This document shows positions 21,746 to 36,140 of a stretch of DNA of 64,000 bases, in pieces (the stretch's first letter is position 1; each line of letters opens with the position of its first letter). A program made the translations under genes and the position numbers. The stretch is taken from assembly GCA_031292305.1 (NCBI GenBank), contig JARLHJ010000012.1, positions 1 to 64,000 of the forward strand, in the 5' to 3' direction. The notes beneath the pieces were generated by a model. The model saw only the letters and a program-made list of their open reading frames with translations. It made no database searches and was not told the origin of the DNA. This stretch comes from Candidatus Babeliales bacterium. GTDB taxonomy: Bacteria > Babelota > Babeliae > Babelales > JABDEC01.

Positions 21746-21886
21746 ATTAACCCTTTTTTTAGGTAAAAAATAAATTTAAAACAACTTATTAGCTAGTATA
21801 ATAAGCTCTTTTAAATAATAAAAGTACAAATATATATATTTACTGTATGCTTATAATATAATAAATAGAAACATTCATAGGAATAT

Positions 21887-23131: not shown

Positions 23132-23146
23132 TAATTAAGATATTAA

Positions 23147-23185
23147 AAAAACGAGCTAATCCATCAAAGATTAGCTCGTTTTTTA
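23147..23185. terminator. Bidirectional rho-independent terminator (ACGAGCTAATC-catcaaa-GATTAGCTCGT, flanked by A- and T-runs)
   Basis: Sits between the convergent DEAD-box gene and the Cys-rich gene. Confidence 0.65.
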
Positions 23186-23187
23186 AT

Positions 23188-24099
23188 TTATAATTCGATA
23201 AGTTCATTAGCTTCTTCAAAACCAGGATTAATAGGTTCTACTATAGCAGGTCCATGCTCTACAGATGGATTGTAACCAGCCACACATTGATTATTTGTGC
23301 AAGCATAATTTGGACAACCTACCATTCCCGCAGGACACAATTTTTCTTTGCAATCCGCATCAGTTTTACATTGTGATGTTGACGCGTTTTAAGTTCTTTC
23401 CCAAGGTCTATTGCAAGTCCCTAAGTGTCCATTATTAGGTTTAGTTAAATCGCAACTATAACCACCATCAGTTACACAATTAGCGTCTGAATCACATGCA
23501 TCATTTGCAAACCTAACTGCAGGCATTCCACCTACAATGATTGGTTTAGGAGTTGCAAGTTTTTTGGGTTGAGCAACCTGTTTTTTTACAACCGCTTTTG
23601 CAGCTATAGGTTTATTATCAAGTTCTTCTAAAACAAATGAATTATCATGTGTTTGTATTATAGCATATGTTCCATGTAAATTAATTGAATGCGGAAGTTT
23701 TACTGTAGAGATCTCAGGTGATGAATCTTGTATTGGAGACATTGCAAGTTTGGTAATTTCTTCTTCTTTATTTACGTATTTTTTCATTATAATTTTAGAA
23801 ATTGATTTGGGGTGGTTGCAAGTAAATGCACCGCGCGCCACTTGAGCTACACGTTTTCTCATTACCAAGCCTGCATAACTAATTGGAAATTTAAATGTGT
23901 TTTTATCTGCTATATCATGCGCTTGGACAATATATTTGCCACTATGTTGAGCGTTTGATTCATCTGTACAAGTAAAATCGACCTGTGCTTTATCGTTTGT
24001 CATATTTATAATTTTAAAGTTTGAAACAGCTTCACTTGCTCTTAAAGCTGAACATATTAGACTTACAATAATTATTAATATAGTTTTGTTCTTTATCAT
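23188..24099 (-). pseudogene. Cys-rich secreted protein gene with an in-frame TAA (pseudogene, recoding or sequence error); full frame about 303 codons
   Basis: After the TAA the same frame continues …NASTSQCKTDADCKEKLCPAGMVGCPNYACTNNQCVAGYNPSVEHGPAIVEPINPGFEEANELIEL* to 23188. This extends the Cys-rich pattern begun before the stop (…CDSDANCVTDGGYSCDLTKPNNGHLGTCNRPWERT*). Confidence 0.45.
23389..24099 (-). CDS. Secreted Cys-containing hypothetical protein (236 aa), probably interrupted; see pseudogene feature
   Basis: Signal peptide. The ORF ends at TAA (23389-23391), but the same frame stays open for a further 66 codons. Confidence 0.5.
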   Translation of the reverse strand: MIKNKTILIIIVSLICSALRASEAVSNFKIINMTNDKAQVDFTCTDESNAQHSGKYIVQAHDIADKNTFKFPISYAGLVMRKRVAQVARGAFTCNHPKSISKIIMKKYVNKEEEITKLAMSPIQDSSPEISTVKLPHSINLHGTYAIIQTHDNSFVLEELDNKPIAAKAVVKKQVAQPKKLATPKPIIVGGMPAVRFANDACDSDANCVTDGGYSCDLTKPNNGHLGTCNRPWERT

Positions 24100-24205
24100 A
24101 TTTCCCCCATTTTGTTATTCAATCGAAATAATTGTATAATTATGTTAGCATTTTGAGGTTCTAGAAAGCAATAGTTGCTGTTTTCCAGGTTTAAATCTTT
24201 AACCA

Positions 24206-24233
24206 TTGACTCAGAATGTTTCAATTTGATAAT
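24206..24233 (+). promoter_or_regulatory. Putative sigma70 promoter of dps (TTGACT-16 bp-GATAAT)
   Basis: Hexamers read directly about 50 nt upstream of the dps start. An A/T-rich partial palindrome downstream (AATAATGTTTATTAG) could be a Fur/PerR-type operator. Confidence 0.4.
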
Positions 24234-24281
24234 TTATATATTAATAATGTTTATTAGATACAATTTCTTAAAGGAGAAAAT

Positions 24282-24770
24282 ATGAAAAGTTTAATGCATC
24301 ACTCAAAAATAAGTTTACCTGAAAAAGACAGAATTGAGCTTATAAATATTTTAAATAAATCATTAGCTTCAACAGCTGATTTATACGCGCAATTAAAGCA
24401 GGCTCATTGGAATGTAAAAGGAAGAGAATTTATTGAATTACATAAGTTATTTGATGAAATTGCAGAATTAGTAGAAGAGCAAGTAGATATTATAGCAGAA
24501 CGTATCACTAGTTTAGGTGGTACTGCTTTAGGTACAATTCAACAAGCTACAACTAATACAGAGCTAAGATTATATCCAGTTGATATTTTTAAAGCAGAAG
24601 ACCACATAGAACATTTAACGCATAATATTGCAATTTTAGGCGAGCTTACTCGTACTAATATTAAACGTTCTGAAGATTTAGGCGATATGGGTACTAACGA
24701 TTTATATATAGATCTAGTAAGATTGTTAGACAAGAGCTTATGGTTTATTGAGGCTCATGTTCAAAAGTAA
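24282..24770 (+). CDS. dps: Dps (DNA-binding ferritin-like protein)
   Basis: 162 aa. …LYAQLKQAHWNVKGREFIELHKLFDEIAELVEEQVDIIAERITSLGG… is the ferritin-like di-iron fold signature of Dps. RBS AAAGGAGAA. Confidence 0.9.
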   Translation: MKSLMHHSKISLPEKDRIELINILNKSLASTADLYAQLKQAHWNVKGREFIELHKLFDEIAELVEEQVDIIAERITSLGGTALGTIQQATTNTELRLYPVDIFKAEDHIEHLTHNIAILGELTRTNIKRSEDLGDMGTNDLYIDLVRLLDKSLWFIEAHVQK

Positions 24771-24793
24771 TTGAAATTAAGATTATTTAAATT

Positions 24794-24825
24794 AAACCCC
24801 AAAGGAAACTTTGGGGTTTTTTCTT
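24794..24825 (+). terminator. Rho-independent terminator (AAACCCCAAAG-gaaa-CTTTGGGGTTT + T-run)
   Basis: Perfect stem followed by TTTTTC. Confidence 0.7.
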
Positions 24826-24936
24826 TGGATAGCGTAATATTTACTTCCAGTTGCAGGAAATTGCTTATTTGATAATATAATAATTGCGTATGTCTAACTT
24901 GGTGAAACACAAAATCTAAATGCGTTAAGGTAAATA

Positions 24937-25395
24937 ATGAAAAAATTAATGAGTTTTATGCTTATTCTTTTAGTAAGCACAACATTGGTAAATGCAGAAT
25001 TGAACAAGGTTACTAAAGCAGTAGCAACCTTAGTTCCATTAAACGTGGCAACTACTTTTCTAGGTTATAAATGTATTCAATGGGGAAATGCAAATAAATA
25101 TTTAGCAGAAGATGTTAAACAAAATCCTCAAAATAATCTGGATTATATAAGAGATTTTTGTGCTAATTATAAAGAAATTATAAGTACTGGCAAGCACGTA
25201 ATTACAAAACACGATTCAGCTTTATATTTAAAGTTTATTGATGTTAAAAACAAACCTGATGATTTAAAAGAGTTTGGTTACTATATAAGCACTTTGATGA
25301 AAGAAAAATCAAATAATTTAGTTGCAGTTGGCGTGATTCTTCCTTTGTTAGTTTTAGCTAGCTCATCTGTTTATGTTTATAATTTAAGCAAATAA
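24937..25395 (+). CDS. Hypothetical secreted protein (152 aa)
   Basis: Signal peptide MKKLMSFMLILLVSTTLVNA. Terminator at 25419..25460 (TAGACCCAGATT…AATCTGGGTCTA + T-run). Confidence 0.4.
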   Translation: MKKLMSFMLILLVSTTLVNAELNKVTKAVATLVPLNVATTFLGYKCIQWGNANKYLAEDVKQNPQNNLDYIRDFCANYKEIISTGKHVITKHDSALYLKFIDVKNKPDDLKEFGYYISTLMKEKSNNLVAVGVILPLLVLASSSVYVYNLSK

Positions 25396-25550
25396 GTTAC
25401 CTCTTTTTCAGAATTTAATAGACCCAGATTTGTTTTTTCAAATCTGGGTCTATATTTTTTAAATAAATTATTAAACCCAAAAGCATATCTATTGCTTATC
25501 CCTCATTTATTTTGATACTATTAGTATTAAATAATTAAGAAGGGTTTAAA

Positions 25551-25898
25551 ATGAATTCTACTACGCCAAGGCTACGAAGAACAGGAAAATTAATAATTTT
25601 AATTTTCGCATTAATTGCGTTTAATACAAATATTGAAGCTAATAGAGGCTATGCAAGCGGTAATTTCAACCGTGGATATAGTAATAGAAATAATAGAAAT
25701 CAGCGTTGGTCAAATAACCCTTACGGATGGGGAAATAGAAACCGTTGGAACTCAAACTATTGGAACAATAATTATAGACCATATCCTATTTTTAATACAT
25801 GGCCATATGATGAATATTCTTATGTCTATGATGATTATTATGATGATTGTTATTACTACCCACAAAGCTGTCAGTTTGGCTTCTTTTGGGGGTATTGA
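25551..25898 (+). CDS. Small secreted Asn/Arg/Trp/Tyr-rich low-complexity protein (115 aa)
   Basis: Signal peptide, then NRGY/NRN/WN repeats (…NRGYSNRNNRNQRWSNNPYGWGNRNRWNSNYWNNNYRPY…) and a YDDYYDDCYYY tail. Confidence 0.45.
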   Translation: MNSTTPRLRRTGKLIILIFALIAFNTNIEANRGYASGNFNRGYSNRNNRNQRWSNNPYGWGNRNRWNSNYWNNNYRPYPIFNTWPYDEYSYVYDDYYDDCYYYPQSCQFGFFWGY

Positions 25899-25902
25899 TT
25901 AG

Positions 25903-26481
25903 ATGGATATTGATTTAATAATAAAAGTTTCATTAACAATATTTGTTATTATATTGTTTCCTGTATATAAAAAAAATTATGGCTTAAGAAATTTTTTATG
26001 GTTATCTGATATTGGATTATTTCTAACGTTGTTTGCTTTATGGTTTAAATCGCCATTATTAATAAGTATTGCAGTCGTTGGAATTTTGCCCTTAGAGATA
26101 ATATGGAACATAGATTTTTTTGTTAAATTACTTAGTAGTTACAGCATTTGTGGGTTATCCAACTACATGTTTGATAGTAAATATAGCTATGCATTAAGAA
26201 GTTTGTCATTGTTTCATGTCTTTATGCCTCTAATTTGGGTTTATTATCTAAGTAAATGGGGTTATGATATTGGTGCATTTCAATATTGGCTCTTTCTCTT
26301 TTGGATTATACTTACCGTATGTTATTTATTTACAAGCCCAAAAGAGAATATTAATTGGGTTTTTATGCCTGCAAAGTCTAATTGGGATAAAATATCACCT
26401 TTGCAATGGCTACTTATTCTTATGGTTGTGATACCAGTTTTCATATCTTTACCAATGCATTTTATCCTAAAACACCTGTAA
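25903..26481 (+). CDS. Hypothetical polytopic membrane protein (192 aa)
   Basis: About six hydrophobic helices. The start lies 5 nt after the previous stop. Confidence 0.45.
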   Translation: MDIDLIIKVSLTIFVIILFPVYKKNYGLRNFLWLSDIGLFLTLFALWFKSPLLISIAVVGILPLEIIWNIDFFVKLLSSYSICGLSNYMFDSKYSYALRSLSLFHVFMPLIWVYYLSKWGYDIGAFQYWLFLFWIILTVCYLFTSPKENINWVFMPAKSNWDKISPLQWLLILMVVIPVFISLPMHFILKHL

Positions 26482-26619
26482 ATTCATTGCTTGCTGAAAC
26501 CTTTAGGGGTATTTATGCCTTAAATAAGGCAAATTCATTTATTGGAAACTATTGCAATTAGAAACTTTCTTGATTTATACTATTAATAAAGTGAAGTTTA
26601 TTCAAAAAAGGAGGCTCAA

Positions 26620-27681
26620 ATGAAAAAGTTTTTAATATTAATGCTAGTTTTAGCATTAGGTTCAACAGTTAATTTAGATTTAATTGCTAGAGGCGGCGGT
26701 GGCGGTGGTCATGGCGGCGGTGGTCGCGGTGGCGGTGGTATGCGTGGAGGCGGTGGTATGCGTGGTGGCGGTATGCGCGGTGGCGCTAGAGGAGGTGCAC
26801 GTGGCGGCGCAGCTCGTGGTAGAGGTGCTGCAGGTCGTGGAGCTGCAAATCGTGGTGGAGCAAATCGTACAAGAAATGCTAATGCTAACCATAATAGAAA
26901 TGCGAATGCCAATCGTAACAGAAACGCAAATAGAAATCGTAATGGCAACAGAAACAGAAATGGTAATAGAAATAGAAATGGCAATAGAGGTCGTGGTGGT
27001 CGTGGCAACTGGAATCATGGTGGCAATTGGAACCGTGGCGGAAACTGGGGCGGCTGGGGTTATGGCGGCTTAGGCTTAGGATTAGGCTTATTAGGCGGTG
27101 GTCTATTAGGTTACGGTCTATTAGGCGGTTTTGGTCCATACGGTGGCTACGGTTATGGTGGCGATTCAACAACATATGTTGAAGGCGATACTACTTATGT
27201 AGATAGTGGCTATGTAGATAGTGACTATGTTGATAATGGATATTCAGACAATAGTAATAATTATACAATTGTTTCTGATGATAATTCGGGCTCTGCAAAT
27301 GGTGCTTCTGCTGAAAATTCAGAAATGGAAGCAGCAAAGCAAAAAATATTAGCAGATCCAATTAAAAGAGAATTTACTCAAACCTTAGATAATCTAAGTA
27401 AAGAAAATCCAGCAGCTTATGATGCATTCCAAAATAAGCTTAAAGATGATTCTGCATTTAGAGATAAGCTTGAAAGACAGCTAAAAACAAATAAGGGAAT
27501 TAAGAAAGTTACTGCAAGCTTAAAGCGTGCAGATTACCAAGAGTCATTAATAAATGCAGGTAAAGCAGATTCAATATTAAACTCGGGTATTTTAGATGAT
27601 TCTGAAAATATTCAAGCAGTTAAGTTTCCATCAAATGAAGAAACTGTAATAATTGTGCCTCAAGGTACAGTAGCTGGTTAA
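26620..27681 (+). CDS. Secreted Gly/Arg (RGG-type) and Asn/Arg-repeat low-complexity protein (353 aa)
   Basis: RBS AAAGGAGG. Signal peptide. Then GGGGRGGGGMRGGGGMRGG…, (NRNRNG)n repeats, GNWNHGGNWNRGGNW, GYG repeats, and a C-terminal roughly 130-aa non-repetitive region. The ORFs listed on the other frames and strand here are repeat artefacts. Confidence 0.55.
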   Translation: MKKFLILMLVLALGSTVNLDLIARGGGGGGHGGGGRGGGGMRGGGGMRGGGMRGGARGGARGGAARGRGAAGRGAANRGGANRTRNANANHNRNANANRNRNANRNRNGNRNRNGNRNRNGNRGRGGRGNWNHGGNWNRGGNWGGWGYGGLGLGLGLLGGGLLGYGLLGGFGPYGGYGYGGDSTTYVEGDTTYVDSGYVDSDYVDNGYSDNSNNYTIVSDDNSGSANGASAENSEMEAAKQKILADPIKREFTQTLDNLSKENPAAYDAFQNKLKDDSAFRDKLERQLKTNKGIKKVTASLKRADYQESLINAGKADSILNSGILDDSENIQAVKFPSNEETVIIVPQGTVAG

Positions 27682-27763
27682 ATAAAAATTAGTTCTCCTG
27701 GTGTATAAACCAGGAGAACTAAAGTAAATGTGTATAACTGTATATTTTAAAAAGGAGAATGAA

Positions 27764-27973
27764 ATGGAAAATATAAAAATAGTTGATAACATTGTTTTAT
27801 TATTGTTAATTATTGGTGCATTAAACTGGGGTCTAGTTGCTTTCTTAGATTTCAACTTAGTAGCTCGCTTATTAGGTGAAGGTACTGTATTTGCTCGTGT
27901 TGCATATGCATTAGTTGCTGCAGCAGGAGTTTACGCAGCTACTTGGTTTGTAAGAGATCAAGTTTCACAATAA
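27764..27973 (+). CDS. DUF378-family small membrane protein
   Basis: MENIKIVDNIVLLLLIIGALNWGLVAFLDFNLVARLLG… matches the DUF378 GALNWGL signature. RBS AAAGGAGAA 7 nt upstream of this ATG. The track ORF starts earlier at 27728. Terminator at 27995..28029. Confidence 0.7.
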   Translation: MENIKIVDNIVLLLLIIGALNWGLVAFLDFNLVARLLGEGTVFARVAYALVAAAGVYAATWFVRDQVSQ

Positions 27974-28219
27974 TTAGAACATTTTAGATTATTAAGCTCC
28001 ATGCAATAATACATGGAGCTTTTTTTTTGCTTAGGAATCTATTTAATTTGTTTTGATTATATTGGATGTTCGAAGTGCTGTTAAATTGTTCGGGAATAAA
28101 TATATAAAGTTATTAATGTCACGCAAAATTGATATTAATTAAAATTATATTTTTATATTTAGATTTCTATGTTATTAAATTTATATAATTATTGATCTTT
28201 TTATAATGAGAAGGGTTTT

Positions 28220-28906
28220 ATGAATGTTTTAATATTAAGTATTGTTTTGCTATTAAGTTTCAATATCTTTTCTGGTTTAGATTTTAAGTATCCATATACA
28301 GTGCCAACATTGCCGTATGAATATAAGTCATTAGAACCCTATATAGATGAACAAACTATGAAATTGCATCATGATGCGCATCACAAAACCTATGTTGATA
28401 ATTTAAATGCAGTTTTGGTTGATAACAAAAAATTGCAAGCAAAAGACTTAGAGTGGTTATTAAGAAACTTAAATACAATAGAAGACACTCAAACACAAAC
28501 GACAATAAAAAATAATGGTGGTGGTCATTGGAACCATTCATTTTTTTGGAAAATTATGGCTCCTGATTGTCAAAAACTTTCAAATAAAAAATTAATGAAA
28601 GAGATTAAGAAACAATTTGGGTCATTTGATAAATTTAAAGATCAATTTAATGCAGCAGCTAAAAAAGTATTTGGTAGCGGTTGGGCTTGGTTATGTGTTG
28701 ATCAAAATAAAAAATTGGTAATTATTACTACACCAAATCAAGAAAGCCCGATATCACAAGGTTTAGAGCCAATACTTGGTCTTGATGTCTGGGAGCATGC
28801 ATATTATTTAAAATACCAAAATAAGCGAATTGATTATATTAGTTCATTTTGGCATGTGATTAATTGGCGACAAGTTGAAATGAATTATAGTTTTGCAATT
28901 AAGTAA
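28220..28906 (+). CDS. Fe/Mn-family superoxide dismutase with N-terminal signal-peptide-like extension
   Basis: …LPYEYKSLEPYIDEQTMKLHHDAHHKTYVDNLN… and …DVWEHAYYLKYQNKRIDYI… are the Fe/Mn-SOD metal-ligand motifs. About 20 hydrophobic residues (MNVLILSIVLLLSFNIFSG) precede the canonical start of the fold. Confidence 0.9.
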   Translation: MNVLILSIVLLLSFNIFSGLDFKYPYTVPTLPYEYKSLEPYIDEQTMKLHHDAHHKTYVDNLNAVLVDNKKLQAKDLEWLLRNLNTIEDTQTQTTIKNNGGGHWNHSFFWKIMAPDCQKLSNKKLMKEIKKQFGSFDKFKDQFNAAAKKVFGSGWAWLCVDQNKKLVIITTPNQESPISQGLEPILGLDVWEHAYYLKYQNKRIDYISSFWHVINWRQVEMNYSFAIK

Positions 28907-28920
28907 ATTTATAAGATATA

Positions 28921-28957
28921 AAAATAGCTAGCATAAAATTATGCTGGCTATTTTTAT
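28921..28957. terminator. Hairpin terminator between convergent sod and propeller genes
   Basis: AATAGCTAGCATA-aaat-TATGCTGGCTATT (one mismatch) with flanking A/T-runs. Confidence 0.5.
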
Positions 28958-28970
28958 ATCTTATAACTGT

Positions 28971-29993
28971 TTATTTTAAAATCTCCGGTAACAAAAAATC
29001 AGCTAAAAATATTTGGCATGTTTTGTCATCACTACGTTTAGATGTCCAAATAATTTGTTTGCCATCTTTACTAAAACTCGGCAAACCATCAAAAGTAGGG
29101 TGATATGTTAGTCTATAATTAACGCCACTTTTAATATTCATTAAATATATCTCATAGTTATGGTGCCCATGCAATGAAGTTGTATATGCAATTACTTCAC
29201 CATTGGGGTGCCAGTATGGCGCCCAATTAACTGCGCCATTATTAGTCAGTTGAATTTTATTTTTACCATCAGCTTCCATGCAATAAATTTGCAAATAATG
29301 TTCTTTTTCATAATCTGCTCTATAAATTATTTTCTTTGCATCTGGAGAAAAGAAAGGTCCGCCAATATAGACGTTATCTTCAAATGTAATCTGTTTTATA
29401 TTTGTACCATCTGCATTCATGGTATAAATATTCATGCGCCCATGCATGTTGCTCGCAAAAACAATTTGTTTGCCATCACTTGAATATGCACATTCTGCTT
29501 TGTAGTCAGGGCCAGTCGTTAATCCTTTTAATTCTGTGCCATCTGGGTTTGCTTCATAAATATTCATGTATGGTGTAAATTCCCAGCTATATTTGCTGTT
29601 ATCTTTTTTATATCCTGGCACTGCTTGTTTAGTTTTGTCTAAATCTGGGTCTTCATGGCTGCTTGCAAAAATAATCTTCTTACCATCAGGTCTAAAATAT
29701 GCACATGTACATGCACCTTTACCGGTGCTAACCATTTCAGGCATGGTTTCACCAATGCGCAATGTATAAATCTGGTAATGCTCTTTTCCCTTTGGCACTG
29801 CTTGGAAAATTATTGTTTTGCCGTCGGGAGAGAAATAAGATTCACCGGCTTTTTCAAATCCCATTGATGTGTATGTTAATTGCCTAATATTTTGTAATGC
29901 AGGCTGTTCTTGAAGTGCATCAAAATTTTTATAATTTGCTGCGCAAATAGAAAATAGACTTAAGAAAAAAATAAAATAGTTTTGCATTTCCAT
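28971..29993 (-). CDS. TolB-like WD40-like beta-propeller repeat protein (340 aa)
   Basis: Signal peptide, then repeated …SPDGKxIIF/…YSSDGKQIVFAS…/…FSPDAKKIIY… blades characteristic of the Tol-dependent-translocation beta-propeller repeat. It lacks a TolB N-terminal domain and is not in a tol-pal operon. Confidence 0.6.
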   Translation of the reverse strand: MEMQNYFIFFLSLFSICAANYKNFDALQEQPALQNIRQLTYTSMGFEKAGESYFSPDGKTIIFQAVPKGKEHYQIYTLRIGETMPEMVSTGKGACTCAYFRPDGKKIIFASSHEDPDLDKTKQAVPGYKKDNSKYSWEFTPYMNIYEANPDGTELKGLTTGPDYKAECAYSSDGKQIVFASNMHGRMNIYTMNADGTNIKQITFEDNVYIGGPFFSPDAKKIIYRADYEKEHYLQIYCMEADGKNKIQLTNNGAVNWAPYWHPNGEVIAYTTSLHGHHNYEIYLMNIKSGVNYRLTYHPTFDGLPSFSKDGKQIIWTSKRSDDKTCQIFLADFLLPEILK

Positions 29994-30084
29994 TCCTAAA
30001 ATATAATTTACTGAGAAAGCAGCTTACTATATTTTTCAGAAAGTTTATATTTAACTGATCGTTTGTCAGTAAATTTCGATTAAA

Positions 30085-30654
30085 TTATTGGCATGGATTT
30101 TTGCTTTTTTCTTCTAAGCTGTAATAAAGAATCATAAAGAAAGAAAGTGAAGCCAATATTGTCATAGATACTAAAAGAGCGGTAAATCCAAAATAAGATG
30201 CAATAACTCCACCGCTTAAGCAAGCGATACCATAGAAAATTGTAGATACGCCTTCATTCATTGCCCAGCCGCCAGAAAGATCATGCATGGTTTGTTTAGA
30301 ATATTCAGCGTCGTAAGCTGGGTTAGATATTGCACTACCTAATGCGCCTAATACTTCTGTTAAAAACAGAGTATAAATATTAGTAACAAAGAAATACATT
30401 ACAACGCTCATAACCCACAAGAACCAACCAATACAAAGAAATTCTCTTTGGTAAATACGGCTAGATTTTGTTTGGTAAATTAATATAGTAGCCACGCCGG
30501 TAACTATAGAAAATAATGCTACAGCAAAGGAAGTTTCTAAGATTCCTCCACCGATTCTTTCTACAAAAAATGCATAGATTGGTGCTAAAATACCTTGGGA
30601 AAATGTTGAAATACTATAAGAAGCGATTAAGAGTCTTAAATATTTTTTTTGCAT
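30085..30654 (-). CDS. Hypothetical polytopic membrane protein (189 aa)
   Basis: Five to six hydrophobic helices. Confidence 0.4.
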   Translation of the reverse strand: MQKKYLRLLIASYSISTFSQGILAPIYAFFVERIGGGILETSFAVALFSIVTGVATILIYQTKSSRIYQREFLCIGWFLWVMSVVMYFFVTNIYTLFLTEVLGALGSAISNPAYDAEYSKQTMHDLSGGWAMNEGVSTIFYGIACLSGGVIASYFGFTALLVSMTILASLSFFMILYYSLEEKSKNPCQ

Positions 30655-30740
30655 AATAAAGCCTTTAACATAAGTTGTTTATTTAATATAAGTTAAAGGT
30701 ATTATATGATAATGCAATTAAATAAATTTGATAGCAGTAT

Positions 30741-31220
30741 TTACTTATTTTTTGCGTTCTTTATTAGATTAATAATATAATTTTTCATTTCTAAAATTAG
30801 TAAAGAAGATTCTATTCCAGTTGTTAAACGAGAAAAATGATTTTCTGGATTAATATTAGAATCCATTTTTAAATGAAGGCAAGTAACGCATGCAGCACAA
30901 ACTAGAGAGAAATTAATATTATTAACGTCTTTTGAGTAGCATGGATTTTCATTATCACTTACTTTTTTATAAATATTCAAGCCAGTTATTAAAGCACCAG
31001 GCAGAAGCATTATTTCTGGTGTATTTTCTGCAAAATAGCCTAAACATTTGCCAAGATAGTAGCTTGTTAGAACAAATGCTCCAGCTTTAGCACTTTTTAA
31101 ATAAATACTTTCAGTTTTTTGTTCTTCTACTTTTACCTCTGGATCAATTGTAATTTGAACTGTGCCTAGCATGTTAGAAGATAGTATTAATAAACTTAGG
31201 CTTAAGATAAATTTTTTCAT
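30741..31220 (-). CDS. Hypothetical secreted protein (159 aa)
   Basis: Signal peptide. Confidence 0.4.
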   Translation of the reverse strand: MKKFILSLSLLILSSNMLGTVQITIDPEVKVEEQKTESIYLKSAKAGAFVLTSYYLGKCLGYFAENTPEIMLLPGALITGLNIYKKVSDNENPCYSKDVNNINFSLVCAACVTCLHLKMDSNINPENHFSRLTTGIESSLLILEMKNYIINLIKNAKNK

Positions 31221-31299
31221 GGCATCCTCTAATTGTGTAAATATAGTATGTATAGGTCATATTATTAAGTTTAGGCTATATATTTCATTTGTAAAATGG

Positions 31300-32427
31300 T
31301 CACTGTTTTAAATATTTCTTATTTCTTAGCTTTTCTGGCAATAAACAATCAGTTGTATATTTCTCATACCCTTTGCCGTAACCAATTTCTTGCATTAATT
31401 TAGTGGGTGCATTGCGAATGTTCATTGGCACTGGCAAATTACCTAGTTTTTTAACATCATCTTGTGCTTCTAGTAGTGCGTAATAGGACGCTTTGCTTTT
31501 TGGTGCATTTGCCAAATAGCAAACTCCATGTGCTAAATTAATTGCACATTCTGGGTAGCCAATTATTTCCACTGCGCGAAAAACAGAATTGGCAATTGCT
31601 AATGCATTAGTGTCTTCTAGGCCAATATCTTCACTTGCAAATATAACCATGCGACGTGCGATAAATTTAGGGTCTTCGCCAGCTTCTACCATACGTGCTA
31701 AATAGTATAATGCCGCATTAGGTTGGCTTGCGCGCATAGATTTTATAAATGCAGAAATAGTATTGTAATGTTCTTCTGCTTTTTTGTCGTACCTTAAGAA
31801 TTTGTTTTGTAAGGCGTTCTGTAAATTTTCTATATTAATTTCTTTATAAAGTTTTACAGTATTTTCTAGCATTGTAATGGCTTGTCTTGCATCACCATTT
31901 ACCATTCTTGCTAACCATTCTTTTGATTCTTGGTCTATGTTTAAACCAGTTGAATCTATAATTTTAAATATATTTTCTTGAGTCAATTCATTTAAAATAA
32001 ATACACGGCAACGAGAAAGCAAAGCTGAAATAACTTCAAAGCTTGGATTTTCTGTTGTTGCGCCGATTAAGGTTAATTCACCAGATTCAACATAAGGTAA
32101 TAAAAAATCTTGTTGTGCTTTATTAAATCTATGAATTTCATCTAAAAATAATATTTTTGATTTGTCGGTTTTATTGGCAATAATTTTTCTAATATCATCT
32201 TTGCCTGTAGAAACAGCAGAAAGTTCATAATATTCTGCATCTAATGCATTTGCGTAAATTCTGGCTAGGGTTGTCTTACCTGAACCTGGCGGTCCCCATA
32301 AAATAAAACTGAAGATATGTTTTTTTTCTATAGCTATTTTTAAGGGTTTGCCATTTCCTACTAGATGTTCTTGTCCTGCAAAGTCGTTTAGGGTTTTGGG
32401 TCTAATTTTTGATGCTAATGGTTCCAT
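31300..32427 (-). CDS. rarA: Replication-associated recombination protein A (RarA/MgsA AAA+ ATPase)
   Basis: …[18 protein letters not shown]… (Walker A), …[23 protein letters not shown]… (Walker B and sensor), …[21 protein letters not shown]… match the RarA/WRNIP family. Confidence 0.85.
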
Positions 32428-32527
32428 TTTGTTCCCCCATTTAAGTATAATAAAGATAGATGTTCTTTATATTACTATTATACCATAAAAAATAGATTTT
32501 ATAAACTGGTAGGGGAGGTGTTAGAAA

Positions 32528-33055
32528 GTGAAGATAATTAAAAATAGAAAACCGATTTTTATGGTTCACAAACATCATGCCACTAAATTACACTATGATT
32601 TAAGGTTAGAAATTGGAGGTAAATTAAAATCCTTTGCTATGTATGAATTGCCTATTAAACCGTCTGAACCAGTTAATGCTGTGCAAGTGCCAGATCATCC
32701 ATTTTGGTATAGGCATTTTGAAGGTGTAATACCAGAAGGAGATTATGGTGCTGGGCCAGTAATGGTTTGGGACAAAGGTTTATTTTCAAGCTTTATGAAA
32801 GACCATGATGGCAAAGCTATAAGTTTAGAAGAATCTATAAAAAAGGGCTTTATGTTACTTTGGCTAAAGGGACACAAACTAAATGGTGGTTATATTTTAG
32901 TTAGATTAAGCAAGAAGGCAAAATGGTTGATAATAAAAATGGATGATGAGTATGTTATTAAAGGTCGCAAACCAGCTAATTGGCAACGTTCTGTTAAAAG
33001 CAATAAAACATTAGATCAAATTTTAGAACATTATTCAGACAAATTAAAAAAGTAG
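32528..33055 (+). CDS. Stand-alone LigD-type 3'-phosphoesterase (PE) domain protein
   Basis: …FMVHKHHATKLHYDLRLE…KSFAM…PDHPFWYRHFEGVIPEGDYGAGPVMVWDKG…LNGGYILVR… matches the LigD PE-domain consensus (QKHxAxRLHYDFRLE … EGxIPxGxYGAG … WD.G). The track start is GTG 32528. ATG 32561 is an alternative. Confidence 0.75.
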   Translation: MKIIKNRKPIFMVHKHHATKLHYDLRLEIGGKLKSFAMYELPIKPSEPVNAVQVPDHPFWYRHFEGVIPEGDYGAGPVMVWDKGLFSSFMKDHDGKAISLEESIKKGFMLLWLKGHKLNGGYILVRLSKKAKWLIIKMDDEYVIKGRKPANWQRSVKSNKTLDQILEHYSDKLKK

Positions 33056-33105
33056 CAATTTCCCAAATTTCTGAAGGAAATTGCTACAAAAATTAATAAT
33101 AAATA

Positions 33106-33327
33106 TTATCTTTTTTTACGTAACATTGGTAAACCAGTGCGTTCATTTTCTGTTACTTCATAACCTTCTGGTAATTTATCTAATGCGAATTCTTTAGTAA
33201 CTTCACCAGCAAAATAATAAATTCTTTGTTTGCGGCCGCCAGAAAGTTCTACTTCTTTTGAATGTAGATTGTAATCTTTTCCACTTTTCTTTGATTTAAC
33301 TGTAAAAGCCATGATAATACCTTTCAA
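33106..33327 (-). CDS. Small hypothetical protein (about 68-73 aa)
   Basis: ORF with a basic C-terminus. No family recognised. Confidence 0.3.
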   Translation of the reverse strand: MKGIIMAFTVKSKKSGKDYNLHSKEVELSGGRKQRIYYFAGEVTKEFALDKLPEGYEVTENERTGLPMLRKKR

Positions 33328-33430
33328 TTATTTAACATTTAAAATTTATTCATAAGATAAAGCTATTTTATTAACTAAATAAAATGCAATATTTCATTAA
33401 AATAGAATTTTCTAGATTTATAATCAAATA

Positions 33431-33976
33431 TTATTTTTTAGTAGAGAATAATTTAATCATTTCTCTATTAAACGCTGGAATATCTTCAGGTTTTCGAGAC
33501 GTTACTAAATTATCATCGACAACCACTTCTTCATCTATCCAATCGGCACCAGCATTTTTTAAATCTAATTCTAGAGATGGCCATGAAGTTAATTTTTTGC
33601 CTTTAACAGCTTGCGCATTTATAAGAGTCCATGGACCGTGACAAATTGCTGCAATAGGTTTTTCATTTATAACAAATTCTTTTATAAACTTAATGGCATC
33701 GGGAATAATTCGTAATTTATCTGGATTCATTACGCCTCCAGGTAAAACTAAGGCATCATATTTATTGGCATTTGCTAAACTCAATTCAATATCAACTTTT
33801 AATTTTTTAGACCAGTTATCATTATTCCAACTTTGAACTTTAGATTTTTCAGGTGAAATTATTTCAACAATTGCACCTTCATTTTCTAATGCTTTTTTGG
33901 GTTTTTCTAACTCAGAAAGCTCAAAGCCATTAGCTACCAATATTGCTACTTTTAAGCCTAATAATAAATTTGTCAT
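33431..33976 (-). CDS. DJ-1/PfpI-family protein (glutamine amidotransferase-like class 1)
   Basis: …KVAILVANGFELSELEKPKKALENEGAIVEIISPE…YDALVLPGGVMNPDKL…KPIAAICHGPWTLINA… includes the nucleophile-elbow Cys motif AICHG. Confidence 0.85.
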   Translation of the reverse strand: MTNLLLGLKVAILVANGFELSELEKPKKALENEGAIVEIISPEKSKVQSWNNDNWSKKLKVDIELSLANANKYDALVLPGGVMNPDKLRIIPDAIKFIKEFVINEKPIAAICHGPWTLINAQAVKGKKLTSWPSLELDLKNAGADWIDEEVVVDDNLVTSRKPEDIPAFNREMIKLFSTKK

Positions 33977-34184: not shown

Positions 34185-34504
34185 ATTATCTCCTTCTTAT
34201 ATGAATTTATGCTTTATCCATTAAAGCACATTTACTACAATAGTAACAAATTTCATATTTGAAAAACAAGATTTTGAAGTTGGAAAATCAAGTACTAATT
34301 TATACTTGATAATAAATTTTAAGCTGTGTTAATCTTAAATATAAGTAAAAAACAAGTTAAACAGTACAATCTATGACATCGCCATGTGACAACTTTAACG
34401 CACATTATTACTATAATTTTTTATTCATAGTTATCGCTTGCTTTTTAGTATTCACATTTTAGTAAATTTAACAATATATTATTTTACTAAAAAGGAGATA
34501 TGTT

Positions 34505-34903
34505 ATGATTGGTTCAAGTTTTACAGCTCAAAAAACCTATAATACATGGCTTTTGCTACGCATTGCTTATGGTCTTTTATTTATCGTTGTTGGTGTAGAT
34601 AAATTTTTTAATTATATTGTAAACTGGGGACAATACGTTAGTCCTGTAATATTAGACAAATTATTTCCAGATTTATATACATTAATATTAATTGTATCTG
34701 TAGTTGAAATTTTATTAGGGCTTTTAGTTTTAACAAAATGGACCCGCGCAGGCGCTTATGGAATGGCAGTATGGTTTTTAATTATTGCTGTAAATTTGGT
34801 AACAACGTTTCATTTTTTTGATATTGCTGCGCGTGATGTTATATTAGCAATTGGTGCTATTGCTTTGGCCAGATTAACTGAAATTAAAGACGAAATTAAA
34901 TAA
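34505..34903 (+). CDS. Small 4-TM membrane protein, possibly DoxX-like (132 aa)
   Basis: RBS AAAAGGAGAT. Four hydrophobic helices. The LLLRIAYGLLFIVVGVDKF motif resembles DoxX-family N-termini. Confidence 0.4.
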   Translation: MIGSSFTAQKTYNTWLLLRIAYGLLFIVVGVDKFFNYIVNWGQYVSPVILDKLFPDLYTLILIVSVVEILLGLLVLTKWTRAGAYGMAVWFLIIAVNLVTTFHFFDIAARDVILAIGAIALARLTEIKDEIK

Positions 34904-34913
34904 AGGAGATCTT

Positions 34914-35030
34914 ATGGAAAATACTCATAAAAAATGCGAAGAATGTGGTAAATGGCCTTGTAAATGTATTTATGATGGCAACCAAAAGAAATGTGAAGAA
35001 TGTGGCAAATGGCCTTGCATTTGTAAATAA
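34914..35030 (+). CDS. Cys-rich micropeptide (38 aa) with duplicated KKCEECGKWPCxC motif
   Basis: RBS AAGGAGAT 5 nt upstream. Translation is MENTHKKCEECGKWPCKCIYDGNQKKCEECGKWPCICK*, with 8 Cys in two identical CxxC…CxC units. Confidence 0.4.
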   Translation: MENTHKKCEECGKWPCKCIYDGNQKKCEECGKWPCICK

Positions 35031-35083
35031 CTTATATTTTTTAATCCCCGTTGGCTTTTTCACAACCAGCGGGGATATTTTAA

Positions 35084-35307
35084 TGAAAGAAATAATGAAC
35101 AATAAAAATTTAGGCATTCTTTATATTATTCTAGGTTCTGCAATAGTTGTATTATTTGCAGGGCATTTATTAATTAGATTTTTAGGTGCTATTTTTGGTC
35201 TATTTATTTTAAATCATGGCTTACAACTTTTGCGTTTTGCTCCGGTGCAAATTTTAGCATTTCAAATTTTTGAAGATATTAAGAATGGCGTGAAGAAAAG
35301 AAAATAA
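35084..35307 (+). CDS. Small 2-TM membrane protein (74 aa)
   Basis: MKEIMNNKNLGILYIILGSAIVVLFAGHLLIRFLGAIFGLFILNHG… has two helices and a basic tail. It is the 3' part of track ORF 34945..35307. Confidence 0.35.
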
Positions 35308-35482
35308 AAGTTTGTCATTTTCAGGCCTTGTAATGAGGCCTTCTTTTAAACCTCCTATTTTACCCTGTAAGTCAGCTCTAATTGAAATTAATCATTGATT
35401 ATATGCTTAAACTCTTGCTTTTTAGGCTTGGCAACTGCTACTCTAATAGAAATAATGGTGTTAATCAAAAAAGGGAGAAGTT

Positions 35483-36082
35483 ATGAATTATTTTAATAAT
35501 TTAACCGGTAATGAACGTGAAGCGCTAAATCAGTTAAAAGAAAATAGAGGCTGGTACTTAGCATTAGGCATAGGCTTAGTTGCATTAGGTATTTTAGCAG
35601 TTTTATTTTCAATAATTAGTACAGAATTAATGGTAATATATTTAGGTGCAGTTTTATTTGTATTTGGTGTTTTTGAAGTTGTAAAAGCTTTAAAATTAAG
35701 CCATTGGAGCAATTTCTTTTTACATCTATTTTTGGGGATATTATATATTGTCGCAAGTATTTTTATAGTAATACATCCACTTGCTAATGCATTAAGCTTA
35801 ACGCTATTATTAGCAGTGTTCTTTGTAGTTGCAGGTATTGCACGTATAGTCTTTTCATTTACAAACCATGTACGCAACAGAGGCTGGTTACTTTTAAATG
35901 GATTAGTAACATTATTACTTGGTATTTTAATCTGGGTTCAATGGCCATATTCAGGCCTATGGGTTATTGGTACAATCGTTGGTATTGATGCAATATTTAC
36001 AGGTTGGACATGGATTATTTTAGCAATTGAAGCGAAAAATATTAAGATAGAAAATCATCATCATAATAGTGAAGTTAAATAA
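35483..36082 (+). CDS. HdeD-like (DUF308) acid-resistance-type membrane protein with His-rich tail
   Basis: RBS AAAAGGGAGAAG. Six TM helices with the repeated GxxxxGIL pattern typical of HdeD/DUF308. C-terminus ENHHHNSEVK. Terminator at 36101..36130. Confidence 0.5.
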   Translation: MNYFNNLTGNEREALNQLKENRGWYLALGIGLVALGILAVLFSIISTELMVIYLGAVLFVFGVFEVVKALKLSHWSNFFLHLFLGILYIVASIFIVIHPLANALSLTLLLAVFFVVAGIARIVFSFTNHVRNRGWLLLNGLVTLLLGILIWVQWPYSGLWVIGTIVGIDAIFTGWTWIILAIEAKNIKIENHHHNSEVK

Positions 36083-36140
36083 TATAATTTGTTATAATGA
36101 AAAAGGCAGAGTAATTCTGCCTTTTTTTTATCTTAAAATA

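What the first reader, a model, noticed from the sequence alone, without database searches (positions are those of the whole stretch)
34505..36082. Duplicated-CxxC micropeptide (38 aa, 8 Cys) embedded in a cluster of small membrane proteins
An unannotated ORF at 34914..35030 has a strong RBS and encodes MENTHKKCEECGKWPCKCIYDGNQKKCEECGKWPCICK. This is two exact copies of K-K-C-E-E-C-G-K-W-P-C-x-C, a tandem zinc-ribbon or metallothionein-like metal site. It lies 10 nt after a DoxX-like 4-TM gene. It is followed by a 74-aa 2-TM protein and an HdeD-like 6-TM protein with a His-rich tail, all on the same strand. A small cytoplasmic Cys4-Cys4 peptide co-transcribed with membrane proteins could be a metal chaperone or sensor, or a redox switch partner for the membrane module. 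It is below most annotation length cut-offs.
Basis: seen in the sequence. Interest (0 to 1): 0.55.

Follow-up and report, generated by a model that had tools for sequence, protein, structure and literature searches.

The report
Unannotated cysteine-rich 38-residue metal-binding micropeptide
A real but unannotated 38-amino-acid gene in an uncultured amoeba-associated (Babeliales) bacterium encodes two copies of a four-cysteine motif that most likely binds metal; it belongs to a small, locally variable set of cysteine-rich mini-proteins linked to a DoxX stress membrane protein, and its function is untested.

Summary
ORF 34914..35030 (+) encodes MENTHKKCEECGKWPCKCIYDGNQKKCEECGKWPCICK. It starts 10 nt after a Pfam-verified DoxX gene and has an AAGGAGA Shine-Dalgarno. 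It is absent from the public annotation.

Evidence that it is a translated gene:
- The two 13-codon copies differ at 6 nt: four synonymous third positions and one K/I codon. Simulation gives P about 1e-4.
- Every other frame scrambles the repeat, including the antisense 73-aa ORF.
- The closest relative with long flanks has a called 38-aa, 12-Cys peptide with the same K-C-x2-C...P-C-x-C x2 layout and a strong RBS in the same locus.

Limits:
- The gene is not stably conserved. One relative has DoxX directly followed by the 2-TM gene with no peptide, and two others also lack it.
- No homologue was found among 1.84 billion representative proteins, Pfam, NCBIfam or PDB.
- Co-transcription is supported only with DoxX. 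A strong hairpin and two terminators separate the other membrane genes.

Best reading: a cytoplasmic metal-thiolate (Zn or Cu) micropeptide, zinc-knuckle/ribbon-like or metallothionein-like, in a stress-gene neighbourhood. Relatives also carry signal-peptide versions of the same Cys module next to DoxX. This echoes bufferin clusters, but the modifying enzymes are missing.

It is a new family of a known kind, of moderate interest.

The parts
34505..34903 (+). DoxX-family membrane protein of 132 aa with about 4 hydrophobic segments and no Cys. It is the first gene of the probable bicistron.
   Evidence: Pfam DoxX 8.7e-7 (29.9 bits, cut-off 23.6) and MauE 1e-4. It is 100% identical to 'DoxX family membrane protein [Candidatus Babeliales bacterium]'.
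34903..34909 (+). Shine-Dalgarno AAGGAGA for the micropeptide, overlapping the last base of the DoxX stop codon.
   Evidence: Sequence. Rarity of such a site before ATGs is shown. The architecture is the same as the DoxX and DUF308 RBSs.
34914..35030 (+). Micropeptide gene of 38 aa + stop: M + 2 x ~19-aa units. The core copies are aa 6-18 (34929..34967) and aa 25-37 (34986..35024), each K-K-C-E-E-C-G-K-W-P-C-x-C.
   Evidence: Four of the 6 nt differences between copies are synonymous, and P(<=1 aa change) = 1.25e-4. It is not in public protein collections.
35044..35076 (+). GC-rich hairpin with an 11-bp stem and 11-nt loop, followed by AUUUUA. It is probably a partial terminator or RNA-stability element. 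Its 3' arm (GGGGA) is the only SD-like sequence for the 2-TM gene.
   Evidence: RNA fold gives -19 to -21 kcal/mol and z = -5.0, with 0 of 200 shuffles as stable. It persists in the 211-nt fold with no competing structure. It is unique in the window.
35083..35307 (+). 74-aa protein with two hydrophobic segments (annotated hypothetical, MDR3646248.1). Orthologues of 71-72 aa occur in L001, L002 and L060.
   Evidence: No Pfam or NCBIfam family.
35323..35341 (+). Terminator-like stem-loop + T tract after the 2-TM gene.
35483..36082 (+). DUF308/HdeD-family membrane protein of 199 aa. It is probably its own transcription unit, with a promoter-like site at 35428..35456 and a terminator at 36099..36127.
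   Evidence: Pfam DUF308 8.5e-20 and NCBIfam HdeD 2.4e-17, below the equivalog cut-off.
34370..34420 (-). Relic of a DUF488 gene (KIIVIMCVKVVTWRCHR) with stop codons around it. In L060 an intact DUF488 sits at this same position. In L001 DUF488 is co-operonic with the 38-aa Cys peptide.
   Evidence: tblastn E = 0.001, 65% identity to aa 114-130 of the L001 DUF488.
34896..35117 (-). Antisense 73-aa ORF overlapping the micropeptide, rejected as a gene.
   Evidence: In this frame the two repeat copies differ at 5 of 12 residues, against 1 of 12 in the sense frame. Its product is not in any collection.

Best explanation
The ORF is a genuine, translated, lineage-restricted gene for a hydrophilic cytoplasmic micropeptide. 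It arose by in-frame tandem duplication of a ~19-codon unit carrying a Cys4 module, K-C-x2-C-x3-P-C-x-C. It is most likely made from a doxX-peptide bicistronic mRNA, using its own strong SD 10 nt after the doxX stop.

Inferred: the eight thiolates bind metal, most probably two Zn(II). Two geometries are possible. One is two sequential Cys4 knuckles. The other is a cross-braced pair, in which the two CxxC knuckles form a zinc-ribbon site and the two PCxC pairs form a second site. Cu(I) thiolate clusters are an alternative.

Inferred role: a small metal/thiol buffer (metallothionein-like) or a metal-dependent partner of DoxX. It would act within a locus and neighbourhood devoted to oxidative, acid and metal stress in an amoeba-associated bacterium.

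Shown: gene reality, duplication under purifying selection, locus linkage to DoxX, DUF488, the 2-TM gene and DUF308, and a probable homologue in a relative.

Inferred only: metal binding, metal identity, stoichiometry and physiological role.
For: - Coding: there is a strong SD. Between the repeat copies, 4 of about 5.5 synonymous sites have changed but only 1 of 13 residues. Simulation gives P = 1.25e-4, and all five other frames are less well preserved (5, 5, 5, 5 and 2 changes against 1).
- Age: the 84% nucleotide identity between copies means an old duplication, not an assembly artefact.
- Homologue: L001 (DoxX 75% identical) encodes a called 38-aa peptide, MKCSQCECKNGPCFSCGCGECDKSKKCCVCNAEPCECD. 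It has AAGGAG-7nt-ATG and sits in the DoxX-to-DUF308 interval.
- Alignment with that homologue: the C-terminal halves align without gaps (K25 K26 C27 C30 P34 C35 C37, stop at 39). Seven Cys are in register, P = 5e-4. Overall identity gives P = 0.009 to 0.02 by shuffling.
- Shared locus history: a DUF488 relic lies in the window, and DUF488 is co-operonic with the peptide in L001.
- Same Cys module elsewhere: K-C-x2-C-x4-P-C-x-C forms the C-terminus of Sec-signal-bearing 62-83-aa proteins next to DoxX or the 2-TM gene in L001, L002 and L003. It also occurs as a C-terminal tail or stand-alone micro-ORF in unrelated lineages.
- Fold: the AF2 model has pLDDT 84.7 with a beta-hairpin between the knuckles. 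All nearest PDB folds are Cys4 zinc ribbons. The best PDB sequence match is the aIF2-beta zinc ribbon.
- Context: DJ-1/PfpI, signal-peptide Fe/Mn SOD, Dps-like ferritin, FMN reductase and HdeD lie nearby.
- Literature: DoxX proteins belong to thiol/oxidative-stress systems and to the core of copper-chelating bufferin clusters (PMC7907618; PMC12452194; PMC11626156). Amoebae use Cu and Zn against bacteria (abstracts of PMC11197307 and 10.1101/356949).
Against: - No homologue was found in 1.84 billion representative proteins; the only hit is a spurious eukaryote-like repeat protein. The 5.8-billion word-indexed collection gave none either.
- There is no Pfam, NCBIfam or significant PDB match.
- The gene is absent from L060, L002 and L003, although the flanking genes are present. 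It is therefore dispensable and its position is not conserved.
- Homology to the L001 peptide rests on 38 residues of biased composition (P about 0.01 to 0.02 for identity).
- The fold matches are statistically insignificant (E > 5).
- Two Trp and one Tyr are atypical for classical metallothioneins.
- Nothing here tests metal binding or expression. No metal transporter or metal-sensing regulator was found among the immediately neighbouring genes scanned in the window.
Confidence: 0.5

Rival explanations
1. The peptide is a redox-active partner of DoxX rather than a metal buffer. It would cycle between dithiol and disulfide states, or carry Fe like a mini-rubredoxin (CxxCG ... CxxCG). It would pass electrons to or from the quinone-linked DoxX membrane protein, acting as a thiol-stress switch.
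For: The two genes are tightly coupled (10-nt gap). DoxX homologues act in thiol oxidoreductase complexes and HOCl-induced operons (PMC7907618). More distant DoxX homologues are followed by an FAD oxidoreductase. An unrelated AT-rich contig places similar Cys micro-ORFs next to DsbD_2/thioredoxin-like genes. The two CxxCG motifs resemble rubredoxin or zinc-ribbon knuckles.
Against: This DoxX has no cysteine, so direct thiol exchange is unlikely. The DoxX-peptide adjacency is unique to this genome: L001 pairs the peptide with DUF488, and L060 has no peptide. There is no evidence for Fe binding.
Confidence: 0.2
2. The ORF is spurious, or a young ORF without function: a chance ORF in a duplicated intergenic segment of a decaying locus.
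For: It is an orphan in all protein databases. It is absent between the same flanking genes in L060. The locus shows decay, with a DUF488 relic. The record's annotation did not call it.
Against: The synonymous-only divergence of the repeat is hard to explain without translation (P = 1.25e-4). The SD is optimal. Eight regularly spaced Cys in a 29% GC genome are unexpected; only 4 of 342 small ORFs have at least 10% Cys and none of the others is patterned. L001 has a 38-aa counterpart with its own strong SD.
Confidence: 0.1
3. It is a RiPP precursor, bufferin-like or ranthipeptide-like. Its cysteines would be modified by an enzyme encoded elsewhere in the genome, with DoxX as the accessory gene as in buf clusters.
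For: DoxX is a core gene of bufferin clusters. Many bufferin-type precursors are not encoded next to an MNIO enzyme (PMC12452194). Relatives have Sec-signal Cys-rich small proteins adjacent to DoxX.
Against: The window peptide has no signal or leader peptide. There is no DUF2282 match or other precursor signature. None of the 20 size-compatible ORFs scanned in the 64-kb window is an MNIO (DUF692), DUF2063 or radical-SAM protein, nor are the immediate neighbours. None is called in L001 to L003.
Confidence: 0.07
4. It is a cis-acting Cys-rich leader ORF. Its translation (Cys-tRNA supply) would control the downstream hairpin and so the expression of the 2-TM gene.
For: A stable hairpin follows 13 nt after the stop. 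It contains the only SD-like sequence of the 2-TM gene. The ORF is 21% Cys.
Against: No alternative (anti-terminator) pairing is predicted. Non-Cys residues (K, E, G, W, P) are conserved between the copies as strictly as Cys. The L001 homologue precedes DUF488 with a 9-nt gap and no hairpin. The downstream genes are unrelated to cysteine metabolism.
Confidence: 0.06

Closest known systems
C(P)XCG-type one-domain zinc-finger micro-proteins of haloarchaea (e.g. Brz; PMC2253796, PMC10117724)
   Same: They are very small (under 70 aa) stand-alone cytoplasmic proteins. They are built from two (or four) C-x-x-C-G knuckles and are often missed by annotation. The window peptide has two CEECG motifs 15 residues apart and a zinc-ribbon-like AF2 model.
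   Different: There is no detectable sequence relationship. The Pro of CPxCG is missing. Each CxxCG is followed by an extra P-C-x-C pair, giving 8 rather than 4 ligands. It comes from a bacterium of the Dependentiae, not an archaeon. No function such as transcription regulation is indicated.
Bacterial metallothioneins (SmtA/BmtA, Pfam PF02069; MymT of M. tuberculosis, RicR regulon, PMC3944814)
   Same: They are small cytoplasmic Cys-rich peptides with CxC and CxxC motifs in organisms exposed to host Cu/Zn intoxication. The L001 homologue has 12 Cys in 38 aa and looks metallothionein-like. The Sec-exported relatives carry C-x-C-x-P-C-x-C, the spacing I recall for the SmtA signature; this comes from my own knowledge and was not tested.
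   Different: There is no Pfam match. The window peptide has 21% Cys with two Trp and one Tyr, and a strictly duplicated knuckle rather than a cluster-type sequence. No metal-responsive regulator is adjacent.
Bufferin biosynthetic clusters (BufA precursor - MNIO/DUF692 - DUF2063 - DoxX; PMC11626156, PMC12452194)
   Same: A DoxX gene is genetically linked to a small Cys-bearing peptide. In the related Babeliales loci the Cys-rich proteins have Sec signal peptides like bufferins. The context is metal or oxidative stress.
   Different: No MNIO or DUF2063 gene was found in the window or in the related loci. The window peptide has no signal peptide and no DUF2282 signature. It is therefore not a bufferin cluster. 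At most it is an enzyme-free analogue.
Cys4 zinc ribbons (e.g. aIF2-beta C-terminal domain 1k81, NrdD C-terminal ribbon 1h79)
   Same: The pattern is C-x2-C ... 15 residues with a beta-hairpin ... C-x2-C. These are the best, though weak, sequence and fold matches.
   Different: The matches are not significant (E = 0.47; Foldseek E > 5). The peptide has a second set of four Cys (2 x P-C-x-C) that ordinary zinc ribbons lack.

Membership tests
C(P)XCG zinc-finger micro-proteins | Stand-alone protein of 70 aa or fewer with two or four C(P)XCG motifs | tested here: inconclusive
   The peptide is 38 aa with two CEECG (C-x-x-C-G) motifs but no Pro at position 2.
C(P)XCG zinc-finger micro-proteins | Sequence relationship to described members or a family profile | tested here: not met
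   Pfam gave only sub-threshold noise (zf-H2C2_2 0.012, YhfH 0.031). No real hit was found in 1.84e9 proteins.
C(P)XCG zinc-finger micro-proteins | Binds zinc | not testable with these tools
   This needs metal analysis of the peptide.
Bacterial metallothionein (Metallothio_Pro PF02069 / MymT) | Match to the family profile | tested here: not met
   No PF02069 hit was found for the window peptide, the L001 peptide or the Sec-exported relatives, even at E <= 10.
Bacterial metallothionein (Metallothio_Pro PF02069 / MymT) | High Cys content, CxC/CxxC motifs, few aromatic residues | tested here: inconclusive
   The window peptide has 8/38 Cys with CxxC and CxC motifs, but also W14, W33 and Y20. The L001 homologue has 12/38 Cys and one Phe.
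Bufferin cluster (BufA-MNIO-DUF2063-DoxX) | [quoted passage not shown] | tested here: not met
   The N-terminus is MENTHKK, the maximum hydropathy is -0.91, and there is no hydrophobic segment. The paralogous proteins in L001 to L003 do have signal-like N-termini.
Bufferin cluster (BufA-MNIO-DUF2063-DoxX) | MNIO (DUF692/MbnB_TglH_ChrH) and DUF2063 partner genes in the cluster | tested here: not met
   No such Pfam hit was found in the immediate neighbours or in 20 ORFs of 150-410 aa across the window. None appears in the called genes of L001 to L003. The rest of the genome was not available.
Bufferin cluster (BufA-MNIO-DUF2063-DoxX) | DoxX gene in the cluster | tested here: met
   Pfam DoxX is above the gathering score for 34505..34903.
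Bufferin cluster (BufA-MNIO-DUF2063-DoxX) | Precursor signature (DUF2282; Buf_6/12Cys; Buf_EGKCG) | tested here: not met
   There is no DUF2282 hit. The authors' Buf2 and EGKCG profiles are not in the libraries available, so those two were not tested.
Cys4 zinc ribbon | Two CxxC knuckles flanking a beta-hairpin | tested here: met
   The pattern is C8-x2-C11 ... C27-x2-C30. AF2 places strands at 18-20 and 25-27, with pLDDT 84.7.
Cys4 zinc ribbon | Significant similarity to a solved zinc ribbon | tested here: inconclusive
   phmmer against PDB gives a best E of 0.47 (aIF2-beta). Foldseek against PDB gives a best E of 5.1 and TMq 0.52 (NrdD). All top hits are zinc ribbons but none is significant.
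SCIFF/ranthipeptide precursors | Profile match and an adjacent radical-SAM maturase | tested here: not met
   There is no NCBIfam hit at E <= 1. None of the flanking genes that could be assigned to a family (DoxX, DUF308, DJ-1/PfpI, LigD_N, HD domain) is a radical-SAM enzyme.
Leader-peptide attenuator | Mutually exclusive terminator and anti-terminator structures overlapping the leader ORF | tested here: not met
   The hairpin 35044..35076 stays intact in the 211-nt fold, and no competing pairing is predicted.

The most novel reading that the evidence does not exclude
In this Babeliales clade, DoxX is the hub of an enzyme-free counterpart of the bufferin system. The same K-C-x2-C...P-C-x-C thiolate module would be deployed unmodified in two compartments. 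One form is a Sec-exported 40-60-aa periplasmic protein. The other is a leaderless tandem 38-aa cytoplasmic peptide. Both would sequester the Cu/Zn that the amoeba host pumps onto its intracellular bacteria. The quinone-linked DoxX (with the 2-TM and DUF308 proteins) would keep or sense the redox state of the thiolates. Rapid gain, loss and shuffling of these micro-genes within one locus would then reflect host-driven selection.
Probability: 0.12. Interest if true: 0.65.

Novelty: new member of a known kind. Interest (0 to 1): 0.36.

Why it matters
If the peptide binds metal, it adds an unannotated family of minimal Cys4-Cys4 micro-proteins to the poorly known biology of the Dependentiae, which are obligate associates of protists. 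It also gives a first functional hint for a variable DoxX-centred locus. The link between DoxX and small Cys-rich peptides recurs in bufferin clusters, where the role of DoxX is still unknown. An MNIO-free version could help show what DoxX does. Methodologically, the internal-repeat dN/dS argument shows how a micro-ORF can be validated from a single sequence. The practical impact is modest, because small Cys-rich metal-binding proteins are a familiar kind.

Tried and rejected
Padded with XX, it found nothing.
- The exhaustive HMMER search gave one hit, P0036, a 1269-aa low-complexity repeat protein (TCGSWVCSC repeats). I reject it as spurious.
- A profile of the window and L001 peptides retrieved only the L001 peptide.
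- I scanned the pattern KKC-x2-C-x3-PC-x-C-x-stop over 185,579 species genomes (28 hits), JGI metagenomes (24 hits) and IMG/VR (1 hit). Most hits are out-of-frame chance matches and none is from Babeliales. The window's own genome is not in that genome set.
- An exact look-up of the window DoxX found no record.
- TRF did not report the 57-nt two-copy repeat, which falls below its score threshold. The repeat finder did report it.
- The afdb50 fold library was unavailable.
- I searched PDB for a solved example of the Cys tail on MazG-like proteins. The solved homologue 1vmg ends before the tail.
- I considered and rejected the antisense 73-aa ORF, the leader-peptide attenuator and a repeated or mobile hairpin element.
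- DoxX-peptide fusion by frameshifting was considered from the sequence only. The peptide is in the +1 frame, but there is no recognisable slippery site or stimulatory element, so I did not pursue it.
- DNA alignment of the peptide flanks between the window and L001 was uninformative.
Full report
**Source and observation.** The window is a ~29% GC contig. The DoxX protein encoded in the window is 100% identical to 'MAG: DoxX family membrane protein [Candidatus Babeliales bacterium]' on a 69,208-nt contig. The two genes downstream of the finding are MDR3646248.1 (P4L22_01765, hypothetical) and MDR3646249.1 (HdeD family) from the same contig.

The ORF 34914..35030 (+) exists exactly as described. 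It is preceded by AAGGAGA (34903..34909) with a 5-nt spacer. An SD of this quality precedes 0.6% of all ATGs and 0.8% of the 251 small ORFs in the window, but 12% of the first ATGs of long ORFs.

The upstream gene 34505..34903 is a DoxX/MauE-family protein. The downstream genes are a 74-aa protein with two hydrophobic segments (35083..35307, no family) and a DUF308/HdeD protein (35483..36082). Neither the peptide nor the antisense 73-aa ORF is in a 15-billion-protein collection that does hold the flanking genes, so the ORF is unannotated.

**Is it a gene?** The strongest evidence is internal.
- The peptide is M + two ~19-residue units. The repeat is a 43-nt direct repeat with a spacing of 57 nt, 84% identical.
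- The 13-codon cores (KKCEECGKWPCxC) differ at six nucleotides. Four are synonymous third positions and two lie in one K/I codon.
- About 5.5 synonymous sites are available, so synonymous sites are nearly saturated. Only 1 of 13 residues changed.
- When six random substitutions are placed on the unit, one or fewer amino-acid changes occurs in 1.25e-4 of trials.
- In the antisense ORF's frame the copies differ at 5 of 12 residues. The sense frame is therefore the selected one.

Eight regularly spaced Cys in a 29% GC genome is itself unusual. Only 4 of 342 ATG-ORFs of 20 aa or more reach 10% Cys, and none of the other three is patterned. The peptide is hydrophilic, with no signal peptide or TM segment.

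**Conservation.** No homologue was found by any of these searches:
- the word-indexed search;
- an exhaustive HMMER scan of 1.84 billion representatives, whose single hit is a spurious repeat protein;
- Pfam, NCBIfam or PDB sequences.

I therefore looked at the loci of DoxX homologues. The table summarises the closest ones; in every row below the window, the identity is the DoxX identity to the window protein.

| Locus | DoxX identity | Layout |
|---|---|---|
| window | - | DUF488 relic (-) / DoxX (+) / pep38 (+) / 2-TM / DUF308 |
| L001 | 75% | DoxX / DUF488 (-) / called 38-aa peptide (-) / 222-aa protein / signal-peptide Cys-rich 83-aa protein / 2-TM 71 aa / DUF308 / transaldolase |
| L002 | 71% | same frame, but a DUF6496 gene replaces the DUF488-peptide pair |
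| L003 | 65% | 221-aa protein / signal-peptide Cys-rich 62-aa protein / DoxX |
| L060 | 70% | DUF488 (-) / DoxX (+) / 69 nt with a terminator / 2-TM gene; no peptide |

The L001 peptide is MKCSQCECKNGPCFSCGCGECDKSKKCCVCNAEPCECD, with 12 Cys and AAGGAG 7 nt before its ATG. It lies 9 nt upstream of DUF488, in the same operon.

The window has the L060 layout. A 17-residue DUF488 relic (34370..34420, minus strand, E = 0.001) sits upstream of DoxX, and the peptide is inserted between DoxX and the 2-TM gene.

More distant DoxX homologues (59% identity or less) are followed by an FAD oxidoreductase and have no Cys-rich ORF nearby.

**Relationship of the two 38-aa peptides.**
- They have the same length, and their C-terminal halves align without gaps: K25 K26 C27 C30 P34 C35 C37, then stop.
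- Seven of the window's eight Cys are in register, P = 5e-4 by shuffling. Eleven identities give P = 0.009, or 0.022 if any offset is allowed.
- With small gaps, both peptides read as two units of K-C-x2-C-x(3-5)-P-C-x(1-2)-C. All eight Cys and both Pro are then conserved. This last point is my reading of the sequences.

I regard them as probable homologues. The shared DUF488/DoxX locus history supports this. The gene is an accessory micro-gene that moves or is lost within one locus.

It is contradicted by L001 and by the selection signal.

**The same module elsewhere.** The Sec-signal-bearing proteins of L001 to L003 end in ...C-P-E-T-C-K-C-N-P-C-T-C-T-H-P-C-K-C-G. That is K-C-x2-C-x4-P-C-x-C plus extra Cys. 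They always follow a conserved ~220-aa membrane-anchored protein without a family. The window lacks both.

I scanned the pattern KKC-x2-C-x3-PC-x-C-x-stop over genomes and metagenomes. Most hits were chance, but a few in-frame cases were found:
- a 26-aa and a 57-aa Cys-rich ORF pair next to DsbD_2/thioredoxin-like genes in a 27% GC contig;
- a 28-aa peptide ending KKCPKCGKTPCKCK in a phage-like contig;
- a lipoprotein-like protein with the same tail;
- MazG-like proteins of about 96 aa with a KKCIKCESNPCKCY tail. Their solved homologue lacks the tail.

The unit therefore behaves as an autonomous Cys4 module. This favours one metal site per unit.

**Structure.**
- AF2 without an alignment gives pLDDT 84.7, with strands at 18-20 and 25-27 around a D-G-N turn.
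- Foldseek against PDB returns only zinc ribbons (NrdD, T7 primase, ribosomal and RNA-polymerase ribbons, a RING), all with E > 5.
- The best PDB sequence match is the aIF2-beta zinc ribbon, E = 0.47.
- These are leads, not proof. Two ligation schemes remain open: sequential (C1-4 / C5-8) and cross-braced (CxxC + CxxC / PCxC + PCxC).

**Transcription.**
- The 10-nt gap supports a doxX-peptide bicistron.
- After the peptide comes an 11-bp GC-rich hairpin (35044..35076; -19 kcal/mol; z = -5). It is followed by a weak U tract, is unique in the window, and has no competing fold.
- Its 3' arm holds the only SD-like sequence of the 2-TM gene.
- Terminator-like sites follow the 2-TM gene (35323..35341) and DUF308 (36099..36127). 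A promoter-like site precedes DUF308.
- 'Co-transcribed with membrane proteins' is therefore supported for DoxX, possible by read-through for the 2-TM gene, and unlikely for DUF308.

**Context and comparison.** The neighbourhood is rich in stress genes:

| Gene | Coordinates |
|---|---|
| FMN reductase | 20708..21328 |
| Dps-like ferritin | 24282..24770 |
| Fe/Mn SOD with a signal-like N-terminus | 28220..28906 |
| DJ-1/PfpI | 33431..33976 |

DoxX proteins take part in thiol/oxidative-stress systems (PMC7907618). DoxX is also one of the four core genes of bufferin clusters, in which Sec-exported Cys-bearing peptides are converted by an MNIO enzyme and a DUF2063 partner into copper chelators. 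DoxX is dispensable there for modification and for copper protection (PMC11626156; PMC12452194).

None of the ORFs scanned in the window is an MNIO or DUF2063 protein, and none is among the called genes of L001 to L003. The window peptide also has no signal peptide. This is therefore not a bufferin cluster, although the DoxX and Cys-peptide linkage is a suggestive parallel.

Amoebae are reported to use copper and zinc against ingested bacteria (abstracts). M. tuberculosis uses the metallothionein MymT within a copper regulon (PMC3944814). That makes a metal-buffering role plausible for an amoeba-associated Babeliales bacterium. This last step is inference.

**Verdict.**
- The ORF is very probably a real gene (about 0.85).
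- Metal-thiolate binding is the best-supported mechanism (about 0.5 for the full statement).
- A specific partnership with the membrane proteins is weakly supported.
- It is a new sequence family of a known kind: small Cys-rich metal-binding micro-proteins.
- Interest is moderate. It would rise if the DoxX-linked, enzyme-free 'bufferin-like' reading proved true.

Noticed in passing
window 34370..34420 (-): There is a 17-residue relic of a DUF488 gene (KIIVIMCVKVVTWRCHR) with stop codons around it, in the 320-nt spacer upstream of DoxX. An intact DUF488 occupies this position in L060. In L001 it is co-operonic with the 38-aa Cys peptide. This indicates gene decay and rearrangement in the locus.
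   Followed up: yes
window 35044..35076 (+): A unique, very stable GC-rich hairpin (11 bp, -19 kcal/mol) in a 29% GC genome lies between the peptide and the 2-TM gene. Its 3' arm contains the only SD-like sequence for that gene. It could be a partial terminator, an SD-sequestering element or a stabiliser.
   Followed up: partly
L001 5288..6293; L002 5116..6070; L003 2937..3882: A conserved gene pair occurs in three Babeliales relatives, next to DoxX or the 2-TM/DUF308 genes. It is a ~220-aa N-terminally anchored protein (MDSxQYN...KQFPDKF, no Pfam or NCBIfam family) followed by a signal-peptide Cys-rich 62-83-aa protein ending CPETCKCNPCTCTHPCKCG. Both are absent from the window.
   Followed up: partly
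L040 4789..5048 (also L043): A 27% GC metagenome contig carries two adjacent Cys-rich micro-ORFs. One is 26 aa (MKKCKKCGKEICKKCGGCKCTPCRCK) and the other is 57 aa with CEECG and 13 Cys. They face a DsbD_2 (CcdA-like) membrane protein and a thioredoxin-like protein. Neither micro-ORF matched a Pfam family, and the 26-aa product is absent from the 15-billion-protein collection.
   Followed up: partly
L044, L052, L053 (metagenome), L025 (Promethearchaeota MAG): MazG-like pyrophosphohydrolases of about 96 aa carry a C-terminal tail KKC-x-K/R-C-x-S-x-P-C-K/Q-C-x. The solved homologue SSO3215 (1vmg) lacks it. This looks like an appended Cys4 module of unknown role.
   Followed up: partly
L017 2033..2075 (uncultured Gammaproteobacteria chromosome OZ246408.1): A possible 16-codon micro-ORF with a TTG start (FKKCAKCGKKPCRCK) is followed directly by a canonical terminator. 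Its tail is almost identical to the window peptide's C-terminus (KKCEECGKWPCICK). Its status as a gene is unknown.
   Followed up: no
L047 1204..1290: A 28-aa basic peptide, MYSKSKPKAPAKKAKKCPKCGKTPCKCK, carries a single copy of the motif. It sits in a tightly packed phage-like gene row after GroEL/GroES-like genes.
   Followed up: no
window 20708..33976: Stress and redox genes are concentrated upstream of the finding: FMN reductase, Dps-like ferritin, an Fe/Mn superoxide dismutase with a signal-peptide-like N-terminus, a stand-alone LigD 3'-phosphoesterase domain (32528..33055) and DJ-1/PfpI.
   Followed up: partly
L004 5001..6805; L005 5001..6709; L006; L062: In more distant relatives the DoxX gene is immediately followed by a ~430-aa FAD-dependent oxidoreductase (DAO/FAD_binding_2). 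This is a conserved DoxX-flavoprotein pair, different from the window's arrangement.
   Followed up: no
window 26620..27681 (+): A 353-aa ORF has a signal-like N-terminus followed by a long Gly-rich run (GGGGGGHGGGGRGGGG). It has no Pfam family.
   Followed up: no
window 51650..54382 and 54515..55756 (+): Two adjacent large ORFs share an identical N-terminal stretch (GFNLNIVNKSTKTIWVQ) after their signal-like peptides. They are probably paralogous secreted proteins.
   Followed up: no
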